This document shows, one piece after another, positions 396-53,014 of a DNA stretch of 64,000 bases. The notes below the pieces were generated by a model. It was not told where the DNA came from. It ran no database searches and worked only from the letters and a program-made list of their open reading frames with translations. The DNA comes from Massalongia carnosa (lineage: Eukaryota), in assembly GCA_965645245.1 (NCBI GenBank), contig OZ287073.1:620001-684000 (forward strand), in the 5' to 3' direction. The position numbers were made by a program, and so were the translations under genes. The first letter of the stretch is position 1. Each line of letters opens with the position of its first letter.

Positions 396-1302
396 TCATT
401 CCACTTCCCAGCACAGAACAACAAAAAGAAACACAAGTACCGCAACTTTTGATACACTATAACTTTAACAGTCAATTGAGCCTCTATTTCTCAGTCATTT
501 GAGCTCCTCCAGAGCAAAAACGCTCTCAGAATGAGTGTAGGAGAGCTCTAGCAAAGCTCCAGCAGAGTTTTTCTGCTGGTCGCACGCGACCGACGTGATA
601 AAGCGCGCTCTAAAAGTTGGAAAAAACAACAAATACCAACAACCTCACCAAAAATCGCTCTTTTTTCTTGTTTTCTTCTGTTCTGTTGTCGCATGACCTT
701 CAATTATTACTATAAAAATTATCTACAAAAATTATATACTCTCGCGGGATTGTACAACAACTGTCGCGACGTCAAAGTCTTCTAAAGTTCATTCCTCATT
801 TAAGGTTACGGGAACTTCCGCAAGCACAAATTCTCATAGCATATTTCACGTATAATTTTTGCACATTCAATTTTCGGCTTTATAGATCTTCGTTGAACGG
901 CCGGTCAACAGATCACTGAAAAGAAGGGGGAAAACGTCTGGAATAGGATTATACCAAAGGTCCTGTTACAGATTAATCAGAATGGGAAGTCTCCTTATTG
1001 TCTTACATTGCATTAAAATTTATCTTTATTGAAAAAAGCAAAAAAACTTTAATTATTTTCACCTATTGTAGTGTCTGGTAAAGGGTTAAATAAGACTTAC
1101 TGCCTTAGCGAGGAACGGTCTATTTTAACCCGATTAGGATTTATTTCTCGCGTTATAGTCAAATAAATAGGGATAGGAAAGAAAAGAGTCATTTGACCAG
1201 TAAACATACAGGGGTAAATTCTATTCTGACTAGTACGTCCGGGGAAAGTCAGAATAAATTATTTGGTGGCGATAAAAGGGATATTGCAAAGGCAAAAACA
1301 CT

Positions 1303-10628: not shown

Positions 10629-11369
10629 TCCGAAGAAAGCATGTGGACCTGATGCAATCAATTTTACAATTGTTCAAAAATCGTTTCAATCGTTGAAAAA
10701 CGTGTTTTTCGTGATTTATTCGAAATTCATTCGAATCGGTTTTCACCCGTTATGCTGGCGGACAGGACTCGGTGCAGTTCTGAAAAAACCTAATAAATCA
10801 GACTACTCGTTTCCAAAATCATATAGAATTATCACATTACTAAATTGTCTTGGAAAAATTGCTGAGAAAATCGTTGCAAATCGACTAGCATACTTCGGCG
10901 AAAATTCGAATTTACTCGATATCGAACAGATGGGCGGACACAAAAATCATTCTGCAATTGACGCAGTAATGAACGTTGTTCATGATATTGAAATTGCAAA
11001 TAGAAATAAAAACGTCTTATCATGTTTATTACTCGATGTCAAAGGCGCATTTGACTTTGTCTCGATTAATCAACTGCTAAATTTTATGAAAAAGATGAAA
11101 TTATCTCGCATAATAATTCAATGGGTCAAGCATTTCATGACAAAACGATCGATCAATTTGATATTTGATGAAAATTTAAGCAAAACATATTATGTCGGAT
11201 CAGGAATTCCACAAGGCTCACCAATCTCGCCTATTCTATTTCTGATTAACATTCGTCACTTGTTTCCGAAAATACGAATGAAATTCAATGCACATTCTCC
11301 CAGTTTTATTGACGATGTTGTAATATATGTCGAAAATGATTGGGCCGCATCGAATAATGTTAAATTTGA
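10629..11369 (+). pseudogene. LINE RT domain remainder of the 428 copy
   Basis: KACGPD, DVKGAFD, GIPQGSPISP and FIDD motifs; continues the sequence cut at 4048. Confidence 0.92.
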
Positions 11370-12303
11370 AGCCGCGTAACGCAAAGGTAGATCATAAAAA
11401 GGACGGATTATTACGCCTGAACAATAAGAAACACAAGTACCGCAACTTTTGATACACTATAACTTTAACAGTCAATTGAGCCTCTATTTCTCAGTCATTT
11501 GCGCTCCTCCAGAGTTAAAACGCTCACAGATTGAGTGTAGGAGAGCTCTAGCAAAGCTCCAGCAGAGTTTTTCTGCTGGTCGCACGCGACCGACGTGATA
11601 AAGCGCGATCTAGAAGTTGGGAAAAACAACAAATACCAACAACCTCACCAAAAATCGCTCTTTTTTCTTGTTTTCTTCTGTTCTGTTGTCGCATGACCTT
11701 CAATTATTACTATAAAAATTATCTACAAAAATTATCTACTCTCGCGGGACTGTACAACAACTGTCGCGACGTCAGAGTCTTCTAAAGTTCATTCCTCATT
11801 TAAGGTTACGGGAACTTCCGCAAGCACAAATTTTCATAGCATATTTCACGTATAATTTTTGCACATTCCATTTTCGGCTTTATAGATCTTCGTTGAACGG
11901 CCGGTCAACAGATCACTGAAAAGAAGGGGAAAAACGTCTGGAATAGGATTATACCAAAGGTCCTGTTTCAGATTAATCAGAATAGGAAGTCTCCTATTGT
12001 CTTACATTGCATTAAAATTTATCTTTATTGATAAAAGCAAAAAAAAAACTTTCATTATTTTCACCTATTGTAGTGTCTGGTAAAGGGTTAAATAAGACTT
12101 ACTGCCTTAGCGAGGAACGGTCTATTTTAACCCGATTAGGATTTATTTGACGCGTTATAGTCAAATAAATAGGGATAGGAAAGAAAGAGTCATTTGACCA
12201 GTAAACAAACAGGTGTAAATTCTATTCTGACTAGTACGTCCGGGGAAAGTCAGAATAAATTATTTGGTGGCGATAAAAGGGATATTGCAAAGGCAAAAAC
12301 ACT

Positions 12304-13962
12304 ATGCTCAATCGAAGATTTAACCCGATAGGTCATAGACCAAATCGATTGATACCAACAACTCCTCCCCCAGGCCCCCCTCCACAACATCTATGGGTCC
12401 CCCCGAGTACTCCCCCGTGCCCCCCCCGAACCGACTCCCCCACGCCATCTTCGGTAGCGATAATTGGGAGCAACCCCCTAACCGTAGAATCCACGGAGGC
12501 CATGGACCAAACGCGAGAATTTTCGTCCGCACCGTCCACACCCACCCCAAAAACGAAACCTTTTGTCGCGCCATCTGGTGAATTCAGTACCAATCTGCCC
12601 ATGCCATCATTGAATTCTGATATTCGACTGAGTCCACCAATTAAACGCAACAAAAGACGAACATTTGACGAACATTCGATTGAGAGTCAAGAAGTTATCA
12701 ATCGATCAAAATCGATTCAACTATTGAATACGGCAAAAAATGCATTATTAGAGTCATTCGTAATAGATCAAAACCCCGAAACGGCTATGGTCATCGATCA
12801 CGTTAATTCTCTACTGGCAAAGAAATCGATCAAGCCAAAAGCAACGTTAGAAATGATTGATTGGAAATTGAATAGGGTGCTAGAACAAACTAGCCAAATT
12901 CCAGAAACAAAGAGAAAATCGGTGCATCCTATACAGACAAAATCGAAGGGAAATTCAAATGGAAATTCGAATTTGACTCAAAACGTCAACCCAGAAATTC
13001 GGAGCGAAACCGCCGGAGTCCCAGGGCCGCAGGTCAACGATACAGCTAGAACATGGAGCCAAATGCTCGGAAAAGCGACTGTCAATTCCGAAAATTGGAC
13101 TACCGTTCCTCGATCCAAAAAAACAAACAAGAACAACAACAATAATTCGAATGCGAACAAATTCGATAATACTGACGATTTCAAGGCGATCAAATCTCGA
13201 CGATTGATAATCATACCGAAAGCTCAAATCGGCGATATCGATTCACTGTTGCTTCGAAACCAAATCAATTCGCTTTTTAAAGACGCGAAATTGACTATCG
13301 TTGTTAACACGGTCGAAAAGTCCAAAACGGGTCAAAACATCGTTCTGACTACTAGTCCTGATAACACTGCTGAAGATTTATTGAACAATAAATCAATATG
13401 GGAGCATTTATTCGACCCACGAACAGTTCGAAAGGACGAATCGTGGTTCAAAGTCGTCGCACACGGTGTAAATATTGCAACATTTGATGAAAACATGCAA
13501 TATTTGCAAGAGGAAATTCAAAAGTTCAATTCGAACATGCAATTATGCGATGTTCCCAGATGGCTAGCACGTGATCGTCATAACAAGATCAAATCATCCG
13601 TTGTTTTGACATTCAATGATCGAAATATGGCCTTGAACGCGTTAAAAGGAGTCAATATCGCGGGCCGACATTGTGACACGGAAATATTTACCTCCGTTCG
13701 TCCAAACACACAATGCATTAATTGTCAAAAATTTGGACACAAGCATTATCAATGCAAAAGTCAAGCGAAATGCAGCATATGTGCGCAAAACCATGAAACA
13801 CGCAATCATGAATGCACAACATGCAAGTCAAAAATTGCTTGTGCACACGCCGTCGTCAAATGCGCGAATTGCAACAAGAATCATCAATCCAATGATGAAA
13901 ATTGTGAAATGGTTATATCGTTAAATGTTCGAAAATCGAATGACGAATTAGCCGCTTTGTAA
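12304..13962 (+). CDS. LINE ORF1 (gag-like nucleic-acid-binding protein), intact
   Basis: 552 aa; C-terminal Cys/His knuckles (CINCQKFGHKHYQC, CSICAQNH..C, CANCNKNH..C). Confidence 0.92.
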   Translation: MLNRRFNPIGHRPNRLIPTTPPPGPPPQHLWVPPSTPPCPPRTDSPTPSSVAIIGSNPLTVESTEAMDQTREFSSAPSTPTPKTKPFVAPSGEFSTNLPMPSLNSDIRLSPPIKRNKRRTFDEHSIESQEVINRSKSIQLLNTAKNALLESFVIDQNPETAMVIDHVNSLLAKKSIKPKATLEMIDWKLNRVLEQTSQIPETKRKSVHPIQTKSKGNSNGNSNLTQNVNPEIRSETAGVPGPQVNDTARTWSQMLGKATVNSENWTTVPRSKKTNKNNNNNSNANKFDNTDDFKAIKSRRLIIIPKAQIGDIDSLLLRNQINSLFKDAKLTIVVNTVEKSKTGQNIVLTTSPDNTAEDLLNNKSIWEHLFDPRTVRKDESWFKVVAHGVNIATFDENMQYLQEEIQKFNSNMQLCDVPRWLARDRHNKIKSSVVLTFNDRNMALNALKGVNIAGRHCDTEIFTSVRPNTQCINCQKFGHKHYQCKSQAKCSICAQNHETRNHECTTCKSKIACAHAVVKCANCNKNHQSNDENCEMVISLNVRKSNDELAAL

Positions 13963-16900
13963 TGGCAGGACAGCATTCGTTGACAAACATCGAAAATACA
14001 CAAAATGTTAAATTTATTCAACATAATTGTGCAAAGTCAACGAATGCAATGATATCGTGTTTGGAATATGCTTTATCAAATCAAATTGATATTGTTTTGT
14101 TTCAGGAACCATGGACACGAGATCAAAAAACAATATCACATCCGTCATTTACATGTATTATGCCAAAAATAGCGACTTATCGCTCGAGAGTAGCTATATT
14201 TGTCACAAATGGCAATTCCAAACTGCAATGCACGCCTAGAACGGATCTTATTGACGATTCCGATATGCAAATTATTGAAATTACAATTGATGAAGTTCGA
14301 AAAGTGCAGATTTTCAATATTTATAACGAAAAAAGTCAAAGTGATCGAGAAACATACACGATCGATCGACTTTTAATCCAATTACAACCAAAATCAACTG
14401 ATCAATTCGTCATCTGTGGAGATTTCAATGCACATCATAACTGGTGGAATTCGAAAATTCAACAAGCAATTCGATCAGAAAATCTTGTCAAATGGTTGAA
14501 ATTAAACAGGTGTAGCTTGATAAACACACCTGACTTATGTACATACTACGCCCATTCTGGAAGTTCTTCATCTGTTATTGATTTAACTTTTGCAAATTCT
14601 AAAATCGAAAATGCAATTACAAATTGGTCAATCGATGAAAACGCAGTCACAGGTTCAGATCATGAAGTCATCCGATTTGAACTAATCGCATCTTTCAAAA
14701 ACTTGACGTCACATGCAACCGCATTATCGAATAAATACAATTGCAATAAAGCTGATTGGAATAAATTCGCGAAGTATCTAGACGAAAATTCAACCATCTA
14801 CGAATCACAAGTTCAAAGTTTATTGAATAATCATCAATTCGACGAATCAGCGATATATTTGCAAAACGTTATCAAAAACGCGGCTGAAATGTTTATTCCG
14901 AAAACGAAAATTTGTGCAAAATCGAAAAATTGGTGGTCGCATGATTTAACTGAACTTCGAAAAACCATGTGCAGACATCGTCGAGAATGGAAGAATTATC
15001 CGTCCGATTTTAGTCATCGGACGTTTAAACATAGTCGAATCGAGTATTTTCATGCAATTCGAAAAGCAAAACAACAAACCTGGTTGACTTTTCTAGAAAA
15101 TGCAGCGAATAAAGACGTGTTTACCGCGTATAAATATACTAAACCGCGCATATTCGAAAAAATACCGCCGATTCTACATGAAAACAAGCTAAATGTTCAG
15201 TTTGATGACAAATGCGATGCATTTGTGTCAGCAATGTATACAAAAAACCCATTTATTGACGATAATGAGGAAGATTTATCAAATCAAGACAGCGTAAATG
15301 ATGATAATTGGCCAGATTTGACCGAAAACGAGTTGAAAAATGCGATTAGTTTATTTAATCCGAAGAAAGCATGTGGACCTGATGCAATCAATTTTACAAT
15401 TGTTCAAAAATCGTTTCAATCGTTGAAAAACATGTTTTTCATGATTTATTCGAAATTCATTCGAATCGGTTATCACCCGTTATGCTGGCGGACAGGACTC
15501 GGTGCAGTTCTGAAAAAACCTAATAAATAGGACCTATTCGTTTCCAAAATCATATCGAATTATCATATTATTAAATTGTCATGGTAAAATTGCTGAGAAA
15601 ATCGTTGCAAATCGACTAGCCTACTTCGGCGAAAATTCGAATTTACTCGATATCGAACAGATGGGCGGACGCAAAAATCATTCTGCAATTGACGCAGTAA
15701 TGAACGTTGTTCATGATATTGAAATTGCAAATAGAAATAAAAACGTCTTATCATGTTTATTACTCGATGTCAAAGGCGCATTTGACTTTGTCTCGATTAA
15801 TCAACTGCTAAATGTTATGAAAAAGCTGAAATTATCTCGCATAATAATTCAATGGGTCAAGCATTTCATGACAAAGCGATCGATCAATTTGATATTTGAT
15901 GAAAATTTAAGCAAAACATATTATGTCGAATCAGGAATTCCACAAGGCTCACCAATCTCGCCTATTCTATTTCTGATTTACATCCTTCACTTGTTTCCGA
16001 AAATACGAATGAAATTCAATGCACATTCTCCCAGTTTTATTGACGATGTTGCAATATATGTCGAAAATAAAACTGCAAAACAGAATTGCAAAGAAATCGA
16101 AATCATAGTCAAAACGGCCTTTGATTGGGCCGCATCGAATAATGTCAAATTTGATGACGATAAATCCGAGCTGATTCACTTCGAAAAGACAAGAAATGTA
16201 TCGAAAGACACATTGGAATTACCAAACGGGACAGTACTAGAACCGAAAAATGTAGTCAAATGGTTGGGCGTCTGGTTAGACCGAAAACTAAATTTCAAAA
16301 AACACGTCGAAACGCGGATCTCTTCTGCGAATCGATCGTTTTTTGCAATTCAGAATTTGATGAAATCCGAATGGGGTCTGAAACCGACCGCATGCAGACA
16401 GCTCTATATGTCATGCATTATTCCTATTTCGGACTACGGCTCAGAAATTTGGTATAATGGTCAAAAGAAATATGAAAAACTATTTCAGAACCTACATAAT
16501 CAAATGATTCGAAAGATTTTAGGAACTTTCAAAACCACACTGTTCAGGCGATGGAAATTGAATAACATGTTTTACCAGTTAAACTTCGATTATTAATGAA
16601 AAATCAAAAATACGCAATTCGATTATTGAAGATTGCCGAAAATAACCCTATTTGTCAAAGAATTCCAAACACATATTCGATAAAATCCGAAAATATCGGT
16701 TTTGACACAAGTTTATAGAACAACAAATATGCCGAATGGAACGAAGACGAAAAACAAACAAATAAACGATATCCTAGTCAGCTTATTCGCGTTCTTTATT
16801 CCGTTTCCGACATAGTTCACAAAACTGATTAATTTGAACAATCAAATCATTTTATTAAACCTTGGAAATCGCCTTGCAAAATCGAATTTCAAATCGAAAA

Positions 16901-17971
16901 TACAAAGGAATCTGCAAAATCAAGTTATTATTCGACCTTATCCAAAATTGAATTAATGAACTCCGATAAATTCCGAGTTTTACTTTATACAGATGGTTCG
17001 AAAATCGAATTTGCGACGTCTGCAGTCACATTTGCGCCAATTATAAGGAATTGGAGTAACATTATCAATAATTTTTATCGATTTATCGAAAAAGATTGTC
17101 TGATTAATTATCATACGATTTCGAAAAGCTGGAAATTAAGCAAAAAGTAAAGCATTAAAAATGCTGAACTGTATGCGATTTTACAAGCAATGAAATGGGT
17201 CTATAAATTGTCGAATACTAATATTTTATCGAACTTAGAAAAAACGATTTGGATTTTTTCTGATAGTATAAACGCGATAAACGAAATTCAGAACTTGACA
17301 AATCATATTTTCGCCAGACAAATTCGAAAGATCGCAAAACTCTTATTTGAAAGCAATTTTCAGGTGATTTTGCAACGGGTTCCGAGTCATTCAAATATTA
17401 CCGAAAACGAAATTGCAGAATAGCAAAGACGGGCCATAATCAAATCCTAGTCGAGTCCTCGGCGATAACATTTGATTATGTAAAAGATCAAATAAATCAT
17501 AATATGCTAACCACAAGGACGAATCAATGGCAACAATGCAAATCAAAAGGCTAATACTACGAGAAATTCGAAATGAAACCTGGCATATCGAGATTTTATT
17601 ATTTATCAAACAACTGTTCCAAATTGATATTTGCTACTATTATGCAATTAAAATTCGGACACGGCTATTTTCTATCATATTTGCAGCAATTGAAAGATTA
17701 TAATTCGTCAAAATGTACAAATCGATGCAATCAACGAAAAACGCCAAAAAACTTGTTATTGAATTGCATTCACTATTTCTATGAAATTCAAAACATGAAA
17801 AAAAATATGGATACAACGATCGATTTGAATATGTTGTTTAATATAAAAATCGGCAATGACATTTTGATTAAATTCATTTTCAATAACAAAATTGCGACTA
17901 GAAAATGGATACTAGGTCAGCTTGATGACGAGATTTTCGAAACTGGAGGTTGGGGAGAGATCGAACAGTAA
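13962..17971 (+). pseudogene. LINE ORF2 (APE-RT-RNase H-CCHC), disrupted
   Basis: Starts in the TAATG overlap; QEP, GDFNAHH, SDH, FIDD and YTDGS motifs; stops/frameshifts at ~15528, ~16540 and further on. Confidence 0.93.
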
Positions 17972-18197
17972 AATCAGAAACGATTTATGCTGAAACATTC
18001 ACGAACTTACAAAGACAAATTTTAAAATCGATATTCTTCGATTACTATAGGTTGTTACTAACACGGAGTAAAAATGGGGAAAAATTGACAATACAGATGG
18101 GTTATAAAGGGTTGATTTATTTGTAATATAGAAACATATCCTAAAATAGTTTAGTGTGATAACCTTAGGTTGAATACACTTAATGAATAAATAAAAA

Positions 18198-21100
18198 TGT
18201 AAAAAAGCCGATTGGGATAAATTCGCGAAGTTTCTAGACGAAAATGCAATAAACTACGAGTCCCAAATACAAAGTCTATTGAACAATTATCAATTTGACG
18301 AATCAGCGTTATATTTGCAAAACGTTATCAAAAACGCGGCTGAAATGTTTATTTCGAAGACAAAAATATGCGCAAAATCGAAAAATTGGTGGTCGAAAGA
18401 TTTAACCGGACTTCGAAAAATCATGTGTAGATATCGTCGAGAATGGAAGAATAATACGTCATATTTTAGTAATCAAACATTTAGACATAATCGAATCGAG
18501 TACTTTCATGCAATTCGAAAAGCGAAACAGCAAATTTGGTTGGCTTTCTTCGAAAACGCAGCGAATAAAGAAGTATTTACAGCTTATAAATACACTAAAC
18601 CGCCCATGTTCGAAAAATACCAACTATTCAATATTAAATCAATTTAAATGTCCAATTCGATCACAAATGCGATGCGTTTGTGTCAGCAATGTACACAAAA
18701 AACCCGTTCACGGACGATAATATTAAAGATTTAACGTATCAAGATAGCGAAAATGACAGCAATTAGCCGAATTAAACCAAAAATGAATTGCAAAATGCGA
18801 TTAGTTTGTTTAATCCAAAGAAATCATGTGGACCTGATGCAATCAATTTCACAATAGTTCAAAAATCGTTCCAACCATTGAAAAACGTGTTTTTTACTAT
18901 TTATTCTAAATTTATACAAATCTGTTATCACCTGTTATGCTGGCGAACAGGACTCGGTGCAGTTTTAAAAAAACCTAATAAACCAGATTACTCGCTGCCA
19001 AAATCATATCGAATTATTACATTACTGAATTGTCTTGGTAAAATTGCGGAGAAAATAGTTTCTAATCCACTAGCATACCTCGGCGAAAATTCGAGCTTGT
19101 TAGATACCGAACAAATGGGCAGAGGCAAAAATCATTCTGCAATTGATGCGGTAATGAACGTCGTTCATGATATCGAAATCGCAAACCCAATCAAAAACGT
19201 TATATCATGTCTATTACTCGATGTCAAAGGAGCATTTGACTTTGTTTCGATTAATCAATTGCTAAATGTCATGAAGAAGCTGCATTTACCTCGCATAGTT
19301 ATTCAATAGGTCAAGCATTTTATGACAAAACGATCGATCAATTTGATATTCGATGAACACAAAAGCAAAACGTACTATATTGAATCTGGAATTCCACAAG
19401 GTTTACCAATTTCGCAAATTCTGTTTCTGATTTATATTCGTTACTTATTTCCGAAAATACTAATGAAATTCAATGCTCATTCACCTAGCTTTATAGACTA
19501 TATTGCAATATATGTCGAAAATAAAACTGCCAAACAGAATTGAAAAGAAATCGAAATTATCGTCAAAACAGCTTTTGATTGGGCCGCAACGAATAATGTC
19601 AAATTTGATGACGACAAATCTGAGTTGATTCACATCGAAAAGTCAAGAAATATATAAAAAGACAAAGTGCAATTACCAAACGGGACAATACTAGAACCGA
19701 AAAATTCTGTCAAATGGTTAGGAGTCTGGTTAGACCGAAAACTAAATTACAAAAAACACGTCGAAACGCGAATTGCTTCTGCAAATCGATCGTTTTTCGC
19801 AATTCAAAATTTGATGAAGTTTGAATGGGGAATAAAGCCAACTGCATGCAGACAGCTCTATTTGTCATGCATCATTCCTATTTCGGACTATGGCTCAGAA
19901 ATCTTGTATAATGGTCAAAAGAAATATGAAAAGCTATTTCAGAATCTGCAAAATCGGATGATTCGAAAGATTTTAGGCACGTTCAAAACCACGCCTGTTC
20001 AGGCGATGGAAATTGAATCGCATATTTTACCAGCCAAGCTACGATTGTTGATGAAAAATCAAAAATACGCAATTCGATTATTGAAGATTGCCGAAAATAA
20101 TCCTATTTGTCAAAGAATTCGCAGTACCTATTCGGTGCAATTCGAAAACATCGGTTTTGACACTAGTTTATGGAACAACAGATATGCTGAATGGAACGAA
20201 GACGAGAAAAAATCGAGTAAACCTCATCCTAGTCAGCTTATCCGTATTCTCCATTCCGTTTCGGATATAGTTCACAAAACTGATGAATTCGAATCAGTAA
20301 ATAAGTTCATCAAACCATGGAAGCCGTCTTGTAAAATCAAATTCCAAATCGAAAGATCCAAAGAAACAGCAAAGTCAAGTTATTATTCGACTTTATCAAA
20401 GATTCAATCAATAAACGCCGATAAATCGCGAATGTTACTCTATACCGATGGATCAAAAACCGAGTTTTAAACTTCCGCTGTCACATTTGCACCAATTATG
20501 CGAAATTGGAACAATTTCACCGATAACTTCAATCGTTTTATCGAAAAAGATTGTCTCCTCAAACATCATACGATTTCGAAAAGCTGGAAATTAAACAAAC
20601 AGTCAAGCGTTAAAAACGCTGAACTGTATGCGATACTACAAGCAATAAATGGGCATACAAATTGACAATCGCGAATATTCTCTCCAATTTTGAAAAAACG
20701 ATTTGGATTTTTTCCGATAGCATAAACGCGATAAACGAAATTCAGAACTTGACAAATCATACTTACGCAAAACAAATTCGAAAATTATCGAAATGCTTAT
20801 TCGGAAACAATTTTCAGGTGGTTCTACAATGGATTCCTAGTCATTCGAAAATCGTCGAAAATGAAATTGCAGATAAAGCAGCAAAAGCGGGACATAGTCG
20901 AATCCTAGTCGGGTCTTCGATAATAACATTTGATTATGTAAAGGGTCAAATAAATCGAAATATGTTAGCCACATGGGCGAATCAATTGCAACAATGCAAG
21001 TCAAAAGGCAAATACTATGAGAAATTCGAAATGCAGCCGGGCAAATCGAGTTTTTATTACCTGTCGAATAATTGTTCGAAATTGATATTTGCGACTATTA

Positions 21101-21667
21101 TGCAAATGAAATTCGGACATGGTTATTTTCGATCATATCTGCACCGATTGAAAGATTATAATTCGTCAAAATGCACAGGGCGCTGCAACGAACGTCAAAC
21201 GCCAGAACACTTATTGATGAATTGCATAAATTATTCCAATGAAATCCTAAATATGAAACAAAATATCGATACCACAATTACTTTAAAAATGTTGTTTAAT
21301 ACTAGGATCGGTAATAATATTTTTATTAAATTTATTGTTGATAATAAAATCGCGACTAAAAAATGGATGCTAGGTCAGCTCGATGACGAAAATATCGAAA
21401 CGGGAGGTTGGGGAGAGATCGAACAGTAAAATTAGAAATGATTTATGCTGGAATATTCACGAGCTTTACAAAAACAAATTGTAAAATCGATATTTCGATT
21501 ACTAAAGGTTGTTACTAACACGGAGTAAAAACGGGGCAATATTGATGATACATAGTTGGGTTATAAATGGTTGATTTATTTGTAAAATAAAAACAGATCT
21601 TAAAATAGTTTAGTGTCATAACCTTAGGTTGAATACACTTAATAAATAAATAAAAAATAAAAAAAAA
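18198..21667 (+). mobile_element. 5'-truncated LINE (subfamily B), ORF2 disrupted
   Basis: Fragmented RT and RNase H ORFs 18279-21429, 3'UTR and TAAA/A tail. Confidence 0.92.
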
Positions 21668-22186
21668 TTGTCAAATGACTCTTTCTTTCTTATCCCTATT
21701 TATTCTGTTGACCGGCCGTTCAACGAAGATCGATAAAGCCGAAAATGGAATGTGCAAAAATTATACGTGAAATATGCTGTGAAAATTTATGCTTGCGGAA
21801 GTTCCCGTAACCTTAAATGAGGAATAAACTTTACAAGACTTTGACGTCGCGACAGTTGTTGTACAGTACCGCGAGGGTAGATTTGTATGTAGATAATTCT
21901 TATAGTAATAATTGAAGGTCATGCGACAACAAACAGAAGAAAACAAGAAAAAGGAGTGATTTTTGGTGATGTTGTTGGTATTTGTTGTTTTTTCCAACTT
22001 CTAGAGCGCGCTTTATCACGTCGGTCGCGTGCGACCAGCAGAAAATCTCTACTGGAGCTTTGTTAGAGCTCACCTACACTCAATCTGAGAGCTTTTTTGC
22101 TCTGGAGGAGCTCAAATGACTGAGAAATAGAGGTTCAATTGACTGATAAAGTTATTGAGTATCAAAAGTTGCGGTACTTGTGTTTC
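21668..22186 (-). mobile_element. LINE (A) 5'UTR fragment with internal deletion
   Basis: Reverse complement of the 5'UTR, ending in gcggtacttgtgtttc (element 5' end). Confidence 0.9.
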
Positions 22187-29800: not shown

Positions 29801-30894
29801 GCATGAAAGTACTCGATTCGACTATGTCTAAATGTTTGATGACTAAAATAGGACGGATTATTCTTCAATTCTCGACGATGTCTACACATGATTTTTCGAA
29901 GTCCGGATAAATCTTGCGACCACCAATTTTTCGATTTTGCGCATATTTTTGTCTTCGGAATAAACATTTCAGCCGCGTTTTTGATAACGTTTTGCAAATA
30001 TAACGCTGATTCATCAAATTGATAATTGTTCAATAGACTTTGTATTTGGGACTCGTAGTTTACTGCATTTTCGTCTAGAAACTTCGCGAATTTATCCCAA
30101 TCGGCTTTATTACAGTTGTATTTATTCGCTAATGCGGTTGCGTGTGACGTCGAGTTCTTTAAAGACGCGATAAGTTCAAATCGAATAACTTCATGATCTG
30201 AACCCGTGACTGCGTTTTCATCGATTGACCAATTTGTAATTGCGTTTTCGATTTTAGAATTTGCAAATGTTAAATCAATAATAGATGAAGAGTTTCCTGA
30301 ATGAGCAAAAAATGTATATAGATCAGGCGTATTTATCAAACTACATTTGTTTAATTTTAACCATTTGACTAGATTTTCTGATCGAATTGCATTTTGAATC
30401 TTCGAATTCCACCAGCTATGATGTGTATTGAAATCTCCACATATGACAAATTGATCAGTTGATATAGTTTGATATTTAACTAAAAGTCGATCGATTGTAT
30501 ATGTTTCTCGATCGTTTAGACTTTTTTCATTGTAAAAGTTAAAGATCTGCACTTTTCGAACTTCATCAATTGTAATTTCAATAATTTGCAGATCAGTATC
30601 GTTTATAAGATCCTTTCTAGGTGTGCATTGTAATTTTGGATTGCATTTTGTAACGAATATAGCTACTCTCGGCCGATAAGTCGCTATTTTCGGCATAATA
30701 CATGTGAATGACGGATAGGAAATTGTTTGTTGATCTCGCGTCCATGGTTCCTGAAATAAAACAATATCAACACGATTTAATACTGTATATTCCAGACACG
30801 AAATCATTGCATTCGTTGACTTTGCACAATTATGTTGAATAAATTTGACATTTTGTGTATTTTCGATATTTGTCAACGAATGTTGTCCCGCCAT
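26881..30894 (-). pseudogene. LINE B ORF2, disrupted
   Basis: APE 29575-30894, RT 28727-29521, thumb/RNase H 27839-28684 and smaller fragments. Confidence 0.92.
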
Positions 30895-32476
30895 TAACCA
30901 AGCATTAATTCATCATTCGATTTTCTAGGATTTAGCGAGATAAAAATTTCGCAACCTATATCGTTCGATTGATGATTTTTGTTGCAATTGACGCATTTCA
31001 GAATTGCATGTGCGCATGCGATTTTAGACTTGCTTGTTGTGCATTCATGATTATGCGTTTCATGACTTTGTGCGCATATATTGCATTTTGCCGGACTTTT
31101 GCATTGATAATGCTTATGTCCAAATTTCTGACAATTAATACATTGCGTGTTTGGACGAACGGAAGCAAATATTTCCGTGTCACAATGTCTACCCGCGATA
31201 TTCACGCCTCTTAACGCGTTTGACGCTTGATTTTTATTATTGAAAGTCAAAACTACCGACGACGTGACTTTGTTCTGACGATCCCGAGCAAGCCATCTTG
31301 GTAAATCGCATAGTTGCATATTCGAATTGTATTTTTCGATTTCGGTTTGCAAATATTGCATGTTATTATCGAATAACGAGATATGTACTCCGTGTGCTAT
31401 GACTTTAAACCAGGATTCGTCTTTTCGAATCTTTGTGATTCGAAAATGTGTTCCCATGAAGATTTATTTTTCAACAATTCTTCGGCATTTTTGTCAGTGC
31501 TAGTGGTGAGAACGATATTCTGACCGGTTTTGGACTTTTCAACAGTATTGACGATGATGTTTAAATTTGCGTTTTTTAATAGCGCGTTAATTTGATCACG
31601 CAACTTCATAGAGTCGATTTGAGCGTCAGGATTTTTCGGTGAAATCACGAGTCGTCTGGCCTTGATTGTATCAAATCGATCGACTTTGTTCGAATTATGA
31701 TTCGAACTTTTCCTTTGAATAGTAGTCCAATTTTCGGAGTTTTCGGTTGCTTTTCCAAGCATTTGACTCCATGTACCGGTTGTGCTAACATTGTTACCAG
31801 AGACCCCGGTGGCTCCTTTGCGAATGGTCTGATTTTCGATAATTGAATTTTCGTTCAATTTAACAACAGGTTTTTGGATTTTTGGACCATTCTGTAGTGG
31901 AGTCGTTTTTTGTTGTGACGTTTTTGAGGAAAGATGACTAGTTTGATCAAGAACTATGCCCATTGTGTAGTTAATCATATCTAAGGATGTTTGTAAATTG
32001 ATTGATTTTTTCGAAATCAACAAATTAACGTTGTCAATTACGATAGCCGTTTGTGGATTTTGGTCGAGTACAAATGATTGCAATAATGCTTTTTTGGCCG
32101 ACTTTAGAAGCTCAATTGAATTTGCCCGATTGATCGCTTCTTGGCTATCTCTCGAATGTTCGTCAAATGTGCGGCTTTTATTTCGTTTAATTGGTGGGCT
32201 TGATCCAATGTTCAAGTTCAATGAAGGCATCGGCAAGATAGTGGAAAATGGACCCGATGGGAATTTCGTTGCCTTTGGTGTCGGTGTTGACGGGGCTGAT
32301 GCATATTCGCGAGTTTGATCCATAGGTTCAAGACGGGGAGAGCTCCCTATCAATGCCACCGGAGATGGTCCGGGGGAGTGTCGGGGGGGGGCCGGGTAAG
32401 GGGTCGATAGGGGGGCGGGACCGGCTGGGGGTGGTGTCCTTGGTATATTCCGGCGGTTCATTACCGCGTTAAACAT
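30894..32476 (-). pseudogene. LINE B ORF1, one frameshift near 31440
   Basis: Two overlapping ORFs (31397-32476, 30894-31457) together give ORF1 with CCHC knuckles. Confidence 0.9.
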
Positions 32477-34071
32477 GGATTTATAAATAAATCGATGTTT
32501 CCTTTGCTATATCCCCTTTATCGCCACCAAATAATTTATTCTGACGTTCCCCGGACGTAATAGTCAGAATAGAGAGTTTTTACGCCGATTTACTGGTCTA
32601 AAGACTCTTGCTTTCCAAACCCTATTTATTTGACAATAACAAGTCAAATAAATCCTAGTCGAGTTAAAATAGACCGTTCCTCGCTTAGGCAATAGATCTT
32701 ATTTAACTCTTTACCTTGACACTACGATATATGGAATATAATAAGAATTTTACGATCGAACAGAAAAATTTTTTTTTTTAAAAAATGTTTTTGATCCAGA
32801 AATAAAAATCAAGTACAATGAGAGAGAGGAGACTTCCTATTCTGGTTAGCCTGAAACAGGGCCTTTGGTTTAACCCTATTTCAGACGTTTTTCCCCTTCG
32901 TTTCAGCAGATTGTTGGTCGGCAGTTCAACGTAAATCAAAAAAACCCAAAATAGAATAGTGTATACGGTACCGGTAACCTTAAATTTCAAATGAAAACCA
33001 AGAAGTTTTGTTATCTCGAGAACAGGTTGTGCAGTTACGCGACAGTGATGATATTTTGTAGATAATTTTTGTGATAATAGATGAGATCTATGCGACAATT
33101 AAACCGAAGAAATATCGAAAATTGAGCGATTTTTGACGTTGTTGTTGGTGTTTTTGTGTTTTGTAGATTTTTTGGACGCGCTTTTTGGTGAAGGGGCGGA
33201 CAGACCGCGAGGAAAACTCTGCAGGAGCAGTAGAAGAGCTCTCCTGTACCCAATTCTGATGGGTTTTAGCTTCTGGTAGGCTCAAATGAATGAGAAGAAT
33301 AAGGAGAATAAGTTGGGAAAGTTTCAGTATATCAAAATATAGGGTACCGATGTTTTCGGGGTTGGCTTTTTGCTGATAGTCGGAATGCATCAATCGAACG
33401 ATATAGGTTGCGAAATGTTTATCTCGCTAAATCCTAGAAAATCGAATGATGAATCAATGCTTGGTTAATGGCGGGACAACATTCGTTGACAAATATCGAA
33501 AATACACAAAATGTCAAATTTATTCAACATAATTGTGCAAAGTCAACGAATGCAATGATTTCGTGTCTGGAATATGCAGTATTAAATCGTGTTGATATTG
33601 TTTTATTTCAGGAACCATGGACGCGAGATCAAAAAATAATTTCCCATCCATCATTCACATGTAAAGAAACCTATAAGAGTCACCTCACCGCAGATCGAAA
33701 CACAAGTACCGCAACTTTTGATAATCTATAACTTTTACAGTCAATTTAGCCTCTATTTCTCAGTCATTTGAGCTCCTCCAGAACAAAACGGACTCACATT
33801 GAGTGTAGGAGAGCTCAGGCAAAGCTTCAGCAGAGATTTTCTGCTGGTCGTACGCGACCGACGTGATAAAGCGCTCTCAAGAAGTTATAAAAAACAACAA
33901 ATACCAACAACATTACCAAAAATCGCTCTTTTTTCTCACTTTCTTCTGTTCTGTTGTCGCATTCTCCTCAATTATTACTACAAGAATTATCTACAAAAAA
34001 TATCTACTGTCGCGGTACTGTACAACAACTGTCGCGACGACAAACTTTTTTGAAGTTCATTTCTCATTTAA

Positions 34072-34305
34072 TGTAAGGTAGCTGTCGTCGATTCTTTTCA
34101 ACCGCTATTAAACTAAAATTTATCTACAAAGAAAGAAAAGAATTATTGTGCGCGACTCGCTAGAAATATCTGCGTCGAGTGTCGCGCTAGCCTCGCGCGA
34201 TCCCGTGATCCCTCTTTCTATCTCGGCTGGCGCTAAGCCTAACCGGTTACCTCGAACACCTCTAAGGTCAACCTTCTATCTCTATGTCAGGCTAGGACCC
34301 TGACA
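34072..34305 (-). repeat. 3' LTR of gypsy-2
   Basis: Identical to 40226-40459. Confidence 0.97.
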
Positions 34306-34364
34306 CTATCCCCCCCTTCTATGGGCGAGGTCTCCGAAGCGCTAAGTGGCAGGCGCCCTGTCAG

Positions 34365-40012: not shown

Positions 40013-40225
40013 GACTGGATACTGGAAGTGGGAAAGCTTGATTCCCTGGCTCTGAAAATTCTGGAAGTTCTGGAATTTGGATCGGTTTGGATTCGCACAA
40101 ACGATCAGTCTGGAAGGTTACTGGAACGGGTCTTCACCCTAACTGGAAGGAAGTTGCTGGAACGGGACCTCGTCCCTACTGGAAGTTCTGGAAGAAAGAA
40201 TACTGATAGGTAGGTAGATAAATTG

Positions 40226-40459
40226 TGTAAGGTAGCTGTCGTCGATTCTTTTCAACCGCTATTAAACTAAAATTTATCTACAAAGAAAGAAAAGAATTAT
40301 TGTGCGCGACTCGCTAGAAATATCTGCGTCGAGTGTCGCGCTAGCCTCGCGCGATCCCGTGATCCCTCTTTCTATCTCGGCTGGCGCTAAGCCTAACCGG
40401 TTACCTCGAACACCTCTAAGGTCAACCTTCTATCTCTATGTCAGGCTAGGACCCTGACA
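40226..40459 (-). repeat. 5' LTR of gypsy-2
   Basis: Identical to 34072-34305. Confidence 0.97.
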
Positions 40460-40937
40460 TTTAAGGTTACGGGAACTTCCGCTAGGACAAATTTTCACAG
40501 TATATTTCACGTATAATTTCTGCATATACCATTTTAGGCTTTATCGATCTCCATTTAACGGCCGGTCAACAGATCACTGAAAAGAAGGGGAAAAACGTCT
40601 GGAATAGGATTATACCAAAGGTCCTGTTTCAGATTAGTCAGAGAAGTCTCTTATTATCTTACCTTGCCTTAGATCTATTTTTATCAAAAAAAAAAGTTTC
40701 ATTATTTTCAACTATTGTAGTGTCTGGTAAAGGGTTAAATAAGATTTACTGCCTAAGCGAGGAACGGTCTACTTTAACCCGATAAGGATTTATTTGACTT
40801 GTTATTGTCAATTAAATAGGGATAGGAAAGAAAGAGTTATTTGACCAGTAAATCGGTGTAATTTCTATTCTGACTAGTACGTCTGGGGAACGTCAGAATA
40901 AACTATTTGGTGGTGATAAAAGGGATATAGAAAAGGC

Positions 40938-51270: not shown

Positions 51271-53014
51271 TGAGCGTCAGGATTTTTCGGTGAAATCACG
51301 AGTCGTCTGGCCTTGATTGCATCAAATCGATCGACTTTGTTCGAATTATAATTCGAACTTTTCCTTTGAATAGTAGTCCAATTTTCGGAGTTTTCGGTTG
51401 CTTTTCCAAGCATTTGACTCCATGTACCGGTTGCGCTAACATTCTTACCAGAGACCCCGGTTGCTCTTTTGCGAATGGTCTGATTTTCAATAATTGAATT
51501 TTCATTCAATTTAACAACAGGTTTTTGAATTTTTTGGACCGTTCTGTAGTGTAGTCGTTTGTTTTTGTGACGTTTTTGAGAAAAGATGACTAGTTTGATC
51601 AAGTACTATGCCAATTTTGTAGTTAATCATATCTAATGATGTTTTTATACTGATTGATTTTTTCGAAATCAACGAATTAATGTTGTCAATTACGATAGCC
51701 GTTTGTGGATTTTGGTCGAGTACAAATGATTGCAATAGTGCTTTTTTGGCCGACTTTAGAAGCTCAATTGAATTTGCCCGATTGATCGCTTCTTGGCTAT
51801 CTCTCGAATATTCGTCAAATGTTCGTCTTTTATTTCGTTTGATTGGTGGGCTTGATCAAATGTTTAAATTCAATGAAGGCATCGGCAAGAGAGTGGAAAA
51901 TGGACCCGATAGGAATTCCGTTGCCTTTGGTGTCGGTGTTGACGGGGCTGATGCATATTCGCGAGTTTGATCCATAGGTTCAAGACGGGGAGAGCTACCT
52001 ATCAACGCCACCGGAGATGGTCCGGGGGATTGTCAGGGGGGGGCCGGGTAGGGGGTCGATAGGGGGGCGGGACCGGCTGGGGGTGGTGTCCTTAGTATGT
52101 TCCGGCTGTTCATTACCGCGTTAAATATGATTTAATAAATAAATCGATATTGCCTTTGCTATATCCCCTTTATCGCCAACAAATAGTTTATTCTGACGTT
52201 CCCCGGACGTAATAGTCAGAATAGAGAGGTTTTACGCCGATTTACTAGTCTAAAGACTCTTGCTTTCCAAACCCTATTTATTTGACAATAACAAGTCAAA
52301 TATATCCTAGTCGAGTTAAAATAGACCGTTCCTCGCTTAGGCAATAGATCTTATTTAACTCTTTACCTTGACACTACGATATTTGGAATATAATAAGAAT
52401 TTTACGATCGAACATAAAAATTTTTTTTAAAAAATGTTTTTGATCCAGAAATAAAAATCAAGTACAATAAGAGAGTAGGAGACTTCCTATTCTGGTTAGC
52501 CTGAAACAGGGCCTTTGGTTTAACCCTATTTCAGACGTTTTTCCCCTTCGTTTCAGCAGATTGTTGGTCGGCAGTTCAACGTAAATCAAAAAAACCCAAA
52601 ATAGAATAGTGTATACGATACCCGTAACCTTAAATTTCAAATGAAAACCATGAAGTTTTGTTGTCTCGAGAACAGGTTGTGCAGTTACGCGACACTGATG
52701 ATATTTTGTAGATAATTTTTGTGATAATAGATGAGATCTATGCGACAATTAAACAGAAGAAATATCGAAAATCGAGCGATTTTTGACGTTGTTGTTGGTG
52801 TTTTTGTGTTTTGTAGATTTTTTGGACGCGCTTTTTGGTGAAGGGGCGGACAGACCGCGAGGATAACTCTGCAGGAGCCGTGGAAAAGCTCTCCTGTACC
52901 CAATTCTGATGGGTTTTAGCTTCTGGTAAGCTCAAATGAATGAGAAGACTGAAGAGAATAAGTTGGGAAAGTTTCAGTATATCAAAGTATAGGGTACCGA
53001 TGTTTTGGGGGTTG
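51271..53014 (-). mobile_element. LINE B 5' part (5'UTR and ORF1 N-half, decayed)
   Basis: Direct repeat of 31620-33364. Confidence 0.92.

What the first reader, a model, noticed from the sequence alone, without database searches (positions are those of the whole stretch)
11428..12303. ~880-nt LINE 5'UTR looks like a large conserved structured RNA with compensatory changes
The A and B 5'UTRs (B: 32477-33364, minus strand) are diverged, yet helices persist with covariation. (i) tctggaatagga/tcctgtttcaga (11937-48/11961-72) is tctgaaataggg/ccctgtttcagg in B. (ii) gggttaaa/tttaaccc (12085-92/12126-33) is gagttaaa/tttaactc in B and encloses a near-invariant gcct(t/a)agcgaggaacggtct core. (iii) gatct..gttga/tcaac..agatc (11885-11914) is gatt..gttg/caac..aatc. 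(iv) The 11-bp stem atttatttgac/gtcaaataaat (12141-70) keeps its pairing with a variable loop. (v) tattctgac/gtcagaata around acgtccggggaa (12223-57) lies ~45 nt before the ORF1 AUG. (vi) A 5' domain acgctc/gagtgt vs accca/tgggt. The inference is an IRES-like, packaging or ribozyme/riboregulatory RNA. I recognise no known family and found no clear hammerhead or HDV core.
Basis: partly seen in the sequence, partly recalled or inferred. Interest (0 to 1): 0.72.

Follow-up and report, generated by a model that had tools for sequence, protein, structure and literature searches.

The report
Conserved hairpins in a LINE leader
The long untranslated leader of a fungal-type LINE retrotransposon is not one big folded RNA, but it is almost free of AUG codons and carries a few short hairpins just before the first gene that seem to be kept by selection.

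Summary
The six helices are at the stated coordinates, but the claim of an ~880-nt conserved fold with covariation does not hold.

**What fails.** In a fold of copy A alone, 85 pairs changed in subfamily B/D. Of these, 54 are broken (26 of 35 in the 5' half).

**What survives.** Four local hairpins in the last ~370 nt:
- i: 11936-11973
- ii: 12085-12133
- iv: 12141-12170
- v: 12223-12257

Of their 51 pairs, 40 never vary, 5 change on one side through G-U, and 2 change on both sides, one event each.

**Best evidence.** Hairpin i is stable only on the sense strand (z -5.8 and -5.5, against -0.2 and -0.6 antisense). Among the most stable local hairpins of the whole element picked from A alone, changed pairs stay paired 4 of 4 times in the leader and 4 of 24 elsewhere (p=0.003).

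**New observation.** ATG is the most depleted trinucleotide in the leader: 0-1 seen, 8-9 expected. This points to cap-dependent scanning and against an IRES.

**Other checks.** No Rfam family or ribozyme matches. Only about three lineages could be compared, so covariation stays underpowered.

**Likely role.** Protein-binding cis elements of the LINE RNA. This is an inference.

The parts
11428..12303 (+). 5' leader (UTR) of LINE copy A, 876 nt, with one ATG
   Evidence: Shared 5' boundary in copies A, A2, E5p and C5p. Contig loose ends at 11428 in run X1. ORF1 ATG at 12304. ATG count 1 against 8.7-15.7 expected.
11936..11973 (+). Hairpin i: 15-bp stem with 5 G-U pairs and an 8-nt loop
   Evidence: Sense -18.9 kcal/mol, z -5.8; antisense -6.9, z -0.2. 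4 changed pairs in B/D, all kept, one of them a double change.
11885..11914 (+).
   Evidence: Present in A. In B it is 4+4 bp and needs a 1-nt register shift. It competes with the long-range pairing 11901-09/12265-72 predicted.
12085..12133 (+). Hairpin ii: 8-bp outer stem, 5-bp inner stem, 3-bp tip around an invariant core
   Evidence: -18.1 kcal/mol, z -3.4. One double and two one-sided changes, all paired. The core 14-mer is exact in 5 of 5 copies.
12141..12170 (+). Hairpin iv: 11-bp perfect A/U-rich stem with a variable 8-nt loop
   Evidence: z -6.4. A vs B: stem 0 of 22 nt changed, loop 3 of 8 changed, p=0.014. Private mutations in A2, C and D break it.
12223..12257 (+). Hairpin v: 9-bp stem around a 17-nt loop holding the near-invariant TACGTCCGGGGAA
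   Evidence: z -3.2. Stem invariant in 5 of 5 copies. Loop motif found in 5 of 5 copies with 0-1 mismatch.
12258..12295 (+). Conserved unpaired tail between hairpin v and the ORF1 start region
   Evidence: Alignments. The distance from hairpin v to the AUG differs among subfamilies: 37, 46 and 60 nt (counted by eye).
12304..13962 (+). ORF1 (552 aa) with C-terminal CCHC-type zinc knuckles
   Evidence: CX2CX4HX4C is read directly from the alignment. No Pfam hit at E<=0.001.
32477..33355 (-). Leader of diverged subfamily copy B, with no ATG
   Evidence: Hairpins i (32849-32886), ii (32661-32709), iv (32624-32653) and v (32537-32571) fold the same way.
428..1302 (+). Leader of copy A2 (97% to A)
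   Evidence: Its private mutations break stems i and iv and add 2 ATGs.
33697..34074 (+). 5' part of the leader of copy C, cut off by an LTR-element insertion
   Evidence: A Ty3/gypsy pol and gag lie between the two parts.
40458..40937 (+). 3' part of the leader of copy C (88% to A)
52150..52946 (-). Leader of copy D (B-type, 5'-truncated)
21704..22186 (-). Fragment E5p: the first 485 nt of the leader (93% to A)

Best explanation
This is the 876-nt 5' leader of a non-LTR retrotransposon with an I/Tad1-like layout: ORF1 with CCHC knuckles, then ORF2 with endonuclease, RT and RNase H. The host is a TE-dense genome, probably an ascomycete.

**Shown.**
- The leader is transcribed from a fixed start at about 11428.
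- It is kept almost free of AUG on the sense strand.

**Inferred from that.** The small ribosomal subunit scans it from the cap to the ORF1 AUG.

**Structure.** It is not one large conserved fold. The 5' ~450 nt evolves fast and keeps no consistent structure. The last ~370 nt carry four local hairpins (i, ii, iv, v) shared by subfamilies whose neighbouring sequence has diverged by 30-50%.
- For hairpins i and ii, changes fixed between subfamilies keep pairing through G-U intermediates and one double change each. Private mutations of dead copies break stems. I read this as selection on sense-strand RNA pairing in the active lineage (about 0.75 for i, 0.6 for ii, 0.5 for iv and v).

**Inferred, not shown.** The hairpins have modest stability (-11 to -23 kcal/mol) and would not stop scanning. 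With their invariant loop cores they probably act as sequence-specific protein-binding sites on the LINE RNA, just upstream of the ORF1 start. The most likely partner is the element's own zinc-knuckle ORF1 protein or ORF2 protein. The role would be to nucleate the RNP and/or shift the RNA from translation to packaging.
For: **Element and 5' end.**
- Domain content of the ORFs.
- Copies and the shared 5' boundary: and loose ends.

**AUG depletion.**
- ATG counts are 1, 0 and 1 in lineages A, B and C. Expected: 8.7, 9.1 and 8.3 under a first-order Markov model, and 14.5-15.7 from shuffles for the full-length leaders A and B.
- ATG is the most depleted of 64 trinucleotides in all three lineages.
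- CAT, its reverse complement, is normal at 12, 12 and 10. Poisson P is 1e-4 to 2e-3.
- Decayed copies A2 and D each gained 2 ATGs.
- A review states that such selection is expected for cap-dependent ORF1 translation (PMC3894237, section 4, passage read). The human L1 5'UTR is scanned cap-dependently (PMC6769788, passage read).

**Conservation island.** A vs B identity per 100 nt is 61-73% in the first five bins (11428-11927) and 77-82% in the last four (11928-12327). It falls to 58-77% through ORF1 to about 13430.

**Hairpins.**
- The same hairpins appear in separate folds of A and B.
- Hairpin i is strand-specific.
- 51 pairs are 98% paired over 5 copies, against 30-49% when the partner is slid.
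- The 7 pairs changed in two or more copies are all kept. The 5 pairs changed in a single copy are all broken (1/792 by hand).
- A vs B within the hairpin block: stems 9 of 102 nt changed, non-stem 27 of 109, p=0.003. The young pairs A/A2 and B/D show no such difference.
- Non-stem divergence (25%) matches ORF2 four-fold sites (26%).
- A-priori control: among windows with z<=-4 picked from A alone, changed pairs are kept 4 of 4 in the leader and 4 of 24 elsewhere, p=0.0034.
Against: **Little covariation.**
- Only about three lineages (A/A2/E, C, B/D) could be compared.
- Only 2 of the 51 pairs show a double change, each one event. The count of such pairs is not above shuffles (253 of 500 reach it).
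- Hairpins iv and v show conservation only. As perfect palindromes they would fold equally on the antisense strand or as DNA.

**Ascertainment.** The stem vs non-stem contrast and the all-transition pattern in stems (9:0) are partly built in, because the helices were defined as pairing in both subfamilies.

**Consensus-fold z-scores do not single out the leader.**
- The 3' domain scores -4.85. Its 185-column windows score +0.68 to -4.10.
- 8 of the 44 windows lying wholly past the ORF1 start reach -2.97 or lower, down to -5.25. One of five 448-column ORF2 segments scores -5.13.

**Other points.**
- Very stable local hairpins are not clearly enriched in the leader: 2 of 37 windows against 7 of 585, p=0.095.
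- Copy C gives no support: 1 changed pair kept and 3 broken in the four hairpins.
- Run X1 contigs carry G>A at 12249, which breaks the closing pair of hairpin v, at about 23% of summed depth.
- No expression, TSS, probing or binding data were available. The protein-binding role is inference only.
Confidence: 0.5

Rival explanations
1. The conserved block acts at the DNA level. The palindromes are binding sites for dimeric transcription factors, or parts of a downstream or antisense promoter in the LINE 5' region. The RNA hairpins are a by-product.
For: - Hairpins iv, v and the outer stem of ii are perfect Watson-Crick palindromes with variable spacers. They fold nearly as well on the antisense strand (ii: -15.1 against -18.1 kcal/mol).
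- The whole-leader fold z is similar on both strands (-2.57 against -2.35).
- LINE 5'UTRs are known to hold internal promoters (general knowledge, recalled).
Against: - Hairpin i has 5 G-U pairs and is stable only on the sense strand in both subfamilies.
- All 5 one-sided changes in stems pass through G-U and never through A-C. Ascertainment partly explains this.
- The block lies 500-870 nt downstream of the start site, which is far for a core promoter.
Confidence: 0.2
2. There is no selected structure. The 3' block is more alike between subfamilies because it was exchanged by recombination or template switching more recently than its flanks. The hairpins are chance inverted repeats carried along.
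For: - The element is mosaic. ORF1 third codon positions are 50% identical between A and B, against 76% in ORF2. Modules therefore have different histories.
- Non-stem positions of the block diverge at the ORF2 four-fold rate.
- Equally stable hairpins occur in coding sequence.
- Stems of 8 bp or more in A are only mildly above shuffles (17 against 10.6, sd 3.3).
Against: - Within the block, stems are about 3 times better conserved than loops and linkers between subfamilies, but not between young copies.
- Changed pairs are kept in leader hairpins and broken in coding hairpins of equal stability (p=0.003).
- P(all pairs kept, given the substitutions seen) is 0.006-0.03 for hairpin i and 0.014-0.04 for ii.
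Confidence: 0.15
3. The structured 3' domain is an IRES that places ribosomes on the ORF1 AUG without scanning.
For: A cluster of hairpins lies directly upstream of the AUG. The leader is long (876 nt).
Against: - Strong strand-specific ATG depletion along the whole leader in three lineages. This is expected only if ribosomes scan it. Leaders that use an IRES hold multiple AUGs (PMC3894237, section 5, passage read).
- The spacing between hairpin v and the AUG is not kept (37, 46 and 60 nt).
- No IRES family in Rfam matched.
Confidence: 0.05
4. The domain holds a self-cleaving ribozyme (HDV-like, hammerhead or other), as at the 5' ends of some LINEs.
For: Precedents exist in other non-LTR elements (recalled: R2, L1Tc). 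Hammerheads occur in Penelope-like elements (PMC4209133, search listing only).
Against: - No ribozyme family appears even at E<=10 in 11300-12400.
- The block is internal to the leader, and the 650 nt upstream are still copied into new insertions with a fixed 5' end. Cleavage there would remove them.
Confidence: 0.03

Closest known systems
Human LINE-1 5'UTR (about 900 nt; internal promoter; cap-dependent scanning)
   Same: A long leader of similar size in a two-ORF LINE, starting at a fixed 5' end. The AUG avoidance seen here fits the cap-dependent scanning reported for L1 (PMC6769788 passage; PMC3894237 section 4).
   Different: No sequence relation was tested or expected. The element here has an RNase H domain and CCHC-type ORF1 (by eye). 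The hairpin cluster next to the AUG has no described L1 counterpart that I know of (recalled).
Packaging and dimerisation (Psi-type) stem-loops in leaders of retroviruses and LTR retrotransposons
   Same: Several short stem-loops with conserved loops lie just upstream of the gag-like ORF, in an element whose first ORF encodes zinc knuckles. This is an analogy only.
   Different: This is a non-LTR element. No binding, dimerisation or packaging data exist. The short palindromes in the loop of hairpin v are no more than chance would give (about 0.9 expected in 17 nt, by hand).
Structured 5' RNA of R2 and HDV-like ribozymes at LINE 5' ends (R2, L1Tc Pr77)
   Same: A conserved RNA structure in the 5' untranslated part of a non-LTR retrotransposon.
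   Different: Those sit at the very 5' end and self-cleave. Here there is no ribozyme match, and the conserved part is 500-870 nt inside the leader.
Rfam RT-14 RNA (RF02921)
   Same: A weak full-length match at 12125-12261: 26.6 bits, E=0.3.
   Different: Far below the gathering score of 48.1, and not found again when 12050-12320 was scanned alone. I treat it as chance.

Membership tests
LINE (non-LTR retrotransposon) 5' leader | Lies directly upstream of ORF1/ORF2, with APE endonuclease and reverse transcriptase | tested here: met
   Pfam: Exo_endo_phos_2, RVT_1 and RNase_H in the downstream ORFs of copies A, B and C.
LINE (non-LTR retrotransposon) 5' leader | Common 5' terminus in independent full-length copies with unrelated upstream flanks | tested here: met
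   A, A2, E5p and C5p start to align at the same base. Loose ends at 11428 in X1 contigs.
LINE (non-LTR retrotransposon) 5' leader | Non-coding | tested here: met
   Stops in all three frames within the conserved block in A, B and C.
Any Rfam family (4227 models) | Score at or above the family's gathering threshold | tested here: not met
   0 matches in the whole window. The best sub-threshold hit is RT-14, 26.6 against 48.1 bits.
HDV-like, hammerhead or other self-cleaving ribozymes | Match to the ribozyme covariance model | tested here: not met
   None listed at E<=10 in 11300-12400.
HDV-like ribozymes of LINEs | Position at the 5' terminus of the element | tested here: not met
   The conserved block spans about 11936-12295, which is 500-870 nt from the 5' end.
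IRES | Internal, cap-independent initiation | not testable with these tools
   Indirect evidence against: ATG 0-1 against 8-9 expected on the sense strand only.
Evolutionarily conserved structured RNA (covariation standard) | Statistically significant covariation in a deep alignment | tested here: inconclusive
   5 copies, about 3 lineages. 2 double changes in 51 pairs. Covariation score 0.102 against 0.078 in shuffles (5 of 500 reach it), but pairs with double changes are not above shuffles (253 of 500). No further homologues could be fetched.
Psi-like packaging signal | Specific binding by the element's nucleic-acid-binding protein and a requirement for RNP formation | not testable with these tools
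   Positional analogy only, plus CCHC knuckles in ORF1 (by eye).

The most novel reading that the evidence does not exclude
The hairpin cluster (i, ii, iv, v) with its invariant loop cores is a Psi-like recognition module of a LINE. In this reading it is a high-affinity site for the element's own zinc-knuckle ORF1 protein, placed just before the ORF1 AUG. It would nucleate the RNP in cis and shut off scanning-dependent translation, giving a translation-to-packaging switch. The mutually exclusive pairing of 12087-96 with 12142-51 might serve as a conformational toggle.
Probability: 0.15. Interest if true: 0.65.

Novelty: new member of a known kind. Interest (0 to 1): 0.33.

Why it matters
How LINE RNAs are chosen in cis by their own proteins, and how translation and packaging are balanced, is still poorly understood outside a few animal elements.

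This family is very abundant: 3500 contig pieces were laid in one run. It has several diverged subfamilies, so it would allow a properly powered covariation test. It would also give simple mutational tests of a leader element next to the ORF1 start.

The near-absence of AUG in an ~880-nt leader is a clean, checkable signature of scanning in a fungal-type LINE.

In itself, though, a LINE leader with a few conserved hairpins is not surprising.

Tried and rejected
**RNA family searches.**
- Rfam at gathering thresholds over the whole window: nothing.
- Rfam at E<=10 over 11300-12400: only chance-level hits. The RT-14 hit did not recur in a narrower scan.

**More homologues.**
- No whole genome is held for this window.
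- A 20-nt core pattern found nothing in metagenome contigs, viral contigs or prokaryote genome contigs.
- An ORF1 protein search of metagenome contigs gave 63 pattern matches but no relative by tblastn. The alignment-based query was not accepted.
- A protein search found 19 ORF1 relatives, mostly from one unnamed assembly, with no DNA retrievable.
- Earlier findings of this scan: nothing by place, sequence or words.

**Sequencing runs.**
- No RNA holder is listed, so nothing can be said about expression or the transcription start.
- Laid contigs gave unlinked variants with 37 rows hidden. They were not usable for a stem versus loop test. Depth differences are not interpreted.

**Consensus-fold z-scores against column shuffles.** Rejected as a discriminator, because coding windows score as low.

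**Enrichment of very stable hairpins in the leader.** Not significant.

**Other readings tested.**
- The block as coding sequence or an N-terminal extension of ORF1: rejected because of stops in all frames.
- Palindromic tetranucleotides in the loop of hairpin v as a dimerisation site: no more than chance.

**Literature.** Searches for a described structure of a fungal LINE leader listed nothing relevant. That covers only the held library.

Full report
**Setting.**
The window is a dense nest of retroelements. Three or more copies of one LINE family carry an ORF1 and an ORF2 with Exo_endo_phos_2, RVT_1 and RNase_H domains. Two Ty3/gypsy elements with chromodomain integrases lie among them. The nearest protein-atlas cluster of the RT-RNase H part is commonest in Ascomycota. 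No whole genome is held for the window.

BLAST of the reported stretch against the window finds these copies:
- A2 at 428-1302 (97%).
- A 485-nt 5' fragment at 22186-21704 (93%).
- C, split by a gypsy insertion into 33697-34074 and 40458-40938 (88%).
- B at 33355-32498 (71%).
- D at 52946-52150 (71%, close to B).

A, A2, the fragment and C begin to align at the same base, after unrelated flanks. Contigs of one sequencing run also lose homology at 11428. The conserved block has stops in all frames.

**Observation.**
Their evolutionary support differs.
- Helix i extends to 15 bp with 5 G-U pairs. Between A-type and B-type it has one double change and three one-sided changes, all still paired.
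- Helix ii has one double change in the outer stem and two one-sided changes in the inner stem.
- Helices iv and v are identical between subfamilies.
- Helix iii needs a one-base shift. It competes with a long-range pairing (11901-09 with 12265-72) that fits the same substitutions.
- Helix vi pairs in another register in B.

Over the 51 pairs of hairpins i, ii, iv and v:
- 40 never vary, 5 vary on one side, and 2 vary on both sides. In 4 pairs a single copy has lost pairing.
- The number of pairs with double changes is no higher than in shuffles (253 of 500 shuffles reach it).
- The covariation score (0.102 against 0.078) is reached by 5 of 500 shuffles, and the share of paired cells by 6 of 500.
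- With about three lineages this cannot meet a covariation standard.

**Not a large conserved fold.**
I folded A alone and asked what B/D did to its pairs.
- Of 85 pairs with a B/D-shared change, 54 are broken.
- Among local pairs in the 5' part, 26 of 35 are broken.
- Among local pairs in the 3' part, 15 of 26 are broken. The kept ones are concentrated in hairpins i and ii.
- Whole-leader fold z-scores are modest and similar on both strands: -2.57 and -2.79 sense for A and B, -2.35 antisense.
- Consensus-fold z-scores against column-shuffled alignments are -4.85 for the 3' domain and -2.09 for the 5' domain.
- The same test gives -5.13 for one of five ORF2 segments. In a sliding scan it gives -2.97 or lower in 8 of the 44 windows lying wholly past the ORF1 start, against +0.68 to -4.10 in the leader windows. 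I therefore do not count this test as evidence.

**What does stand.**
1. *Conservation island.* A vs B identity per 100 nt is 61-73% in the first five bins (11428-11927) and 77-82% in the last four (11928-12327). It drops to 58-77% through ORF1 to about 13430. ORF2 is 75-91%. ORF1 third positions are only 50% identical, and ORF2 four-fold sites 74%.
2. *Stems against the rest.* Within the hairpin block, stems differ at 9 of 102 nt and the rest at 27 of 109 (p=0.003). The young pairs A/A2 and B/D show no such contrast. Part of this, and the 9:0 transition pattern, is built in by choosing helices that pair in both subfamilies.
3. *Shared against private changes.* Changes shared by two or more copies keep pairing in 7 of 7 pairs. 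Changes private to one decayed copy break it in 5 of 5 (1/792 by hand). The same caveat applies.
4. *Strand specificity.* Hairpin i gives -18.9 and -22.9 kcal/mol on the sense strand (z -5.8, -5.5). On the antisense strand it gives -6.9 and -11.1 (z -0.2, -0.6). A DNA palindrome would not behave so.
5. *A-priori control.* I scanned all 673 50-nt windows of element A for fold z. Nine windows reach z <= -4. Two are in the leader (hairpins iv and i) and seven elsewhere.
   - In B, hairpin iv is unchanged.
   - Hairpin i has 4 changed pairs, all kept.
   - The other hairpins have 24 changed pairs, of which 4 are kept. Fisher p=0.0034.
   - Adding hairpins ii and v and three further coding hairpins gives 7 of 9 against 7 of 39 (p=0.0012). 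That set was not chosen symmetrically.
6. *Substitution simulation.* Given the number of substitutions seen, the chance that all pairs stay paired is 0.006-0.03 for hairpin i, 0.014-0.04 for ii, 0.07-0.14 for iv and 0.34-0.43 for v.

**Against.**
- Copy C adds nothing: 1 changed pair kept and 3 broken.
- Contigs of run X1 carry G>A at 12249 at about a quarter of summed depth. This opens the closing pair of hairpin v.
- A loose-end consensus in the same run suggests a variant whose 5' arm ends in T instead of C. That would restore the pair, but the two changes cannot be linked from that output.

- The leader has 1 ATG in A, 0 in B and 1 in C, the one in C being a private change. A2 and D each carry 2 extra private ATGs.
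- The expectation is 14.5-15.7 from shuffles (A, B) and 8.3-9.1 from a first-order Markov model.
- ATG is the most depleted of all 64 trinucleotides in each lineage. CAT is normal at 10-12.
- This strand-specific avoidance means the whole leader is part of the mRNA and is scanned.
- A review of non-LTR translation argues for exactly this pressure (PMC3894237, section 4, passage). The 913-nt human L1 leader is reported to be translated cap-dependently (PMC6769788, passage, citing Dmitriev 2007, which I did not read).
- It speaks against the IRES reading. So does the variable spacing between hairpin v and the AUG (37, 46 and 60 nt).

**Known families.**
- Rfam has no match at gathering scores in the window.
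- At E<=10 there are only chance-level hits and no ribozyme. The RT-14 hit (26.6 against 48.1 bits) vanished in a narrower scan.
- A ribozyme inside the leader would also remove the upstream 650 nt, which are nevertheless copied.

**Mechanism.**
- *Shown:* a fixed 5' end, AUG avoidance, and a conserved hairpin cluster with pair-preserving fixed changes in hairpins i and ii.
- *Inferred:* RNA-level selection on the sense transcript. The hairpins, at -11 to -23 kcal/mol, are weak enough to be scanned through. Their invariant loop cores suggest sequence-specific recognition, most simply by the element's own ORF1 protein or ORF2 protein, for RNP nucleation or a switch from translation to packaging. 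A CX2CX4HX4C knuckle is visible in the ORF1 alignment.
- I give about 0.5 to the overall reading. Within it, I give perhaps a third to that specific role.
- Rivals: DNA-level regulatory palindromes (0.2), no selected structure with modular recombination (0.15), IRES (0.05), ribozyme (0.03).

**Limits.**
- No further homologues could be fetched.
- ORF1 has only 19 detectable relatives, mostly from one unnamed assembly.
- No RNA run is listed.
- Literature searches listed no description of such a leader in fungal LINEs, within the held library only.

**Verdict.**
The reading is real but much smaller than claimed. This is an ordinary LINE leader with a strong scanning signature. It carries a short, probably functional hairpin cluster of unknown role.

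Noticed in passing
13960-14047 (copy A); also 42581-42668 (C) and about 30809-30896 minus strand (B): The ORF1 stop and the ORF2 start overlap as TAATG in all three copies. Nine bases downstream lies a conserved 11-12 bp perfect inverted repeat (13973-13984 with 14036-14047, 51-nt spacer). This resembles the UAAUG termination-reinitiation with a downstream structure described for SART1 (PMC3894237, section 5, passage). This segment also gave the lowest consensus-fold z among the ORF2 controls (-5.13).
   Followed up: partly
34075-40457: A Ty3/gypsy element (gag 38366-40012, pol 34365-38297, minus strand) has inserted into the leader of LINE copy C, splitting it at leader position about 375.
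   Followed up: partly
14729-21664 and 21704-22186: The body of copy A is followed by a second, 84%-identical copy of its last ~3.5 kb (14729-18206 against 18185-21664). After that comes an inverted fragment of the 5' leader. This suggests tandem or nested LINE insertions.
   Followed up: no
11428-13400 versus 13962-18200 (A compared with B): The element looks mosaic. The first half of the leader and ORF1 are far more diverged between subfamilies than ORF2. Third codon positions are 50% identical in ORF1 and 76% in ORF2. That fits module exchange or fast evolution at the 5' end.
   Followed up: partly
12087-12096 with 12142-12151: A 10-bp alternative pairing joins the 5' arm of hairpin ii to the 5' arm of hairpin iv. 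It is mutually exclusive with both hairpins and is unchanged in B and C. It may be a conformational alternative or just A/T-rich repetition.
   Followed up: no
12205-12249 (contigs of run X1): A third variant of the 5' arm of hairpin v appears as a loose-end consensus. G>A at 12249 is seen at about 23% of summed depth. Together these could be a compensatory change of the closing pair, but the output does not link them.
   Followed up: no
11400-12600 in run X1: 3500 contig pieces were laid at 80% likeness or more: 1350 at 99% or more, 1334 at 95-99%, 656 at 90-95%, and 160 below 90%. The family is very abundant and has many variants in that run. Low-depth pieces occur in runs labelled as several other organisms and in a lichen metagenome.
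   Followed up: no
16028-16157 and 16288-16347: Very stable local hairpins lie inside ORF2 of copy A (z -4.4 to -5.6). Their changed pairs are mostly broken in B and C, so they are not conserved structures.
   Followed up: yes
11428-12303 and the homologous leaders: CTG is about twice as frequent as expected in all three lineages (12-15 against about 7.3). TG as a dinucleotide is low, at 34-35 against 49-58 for CA.
   Followed up: no
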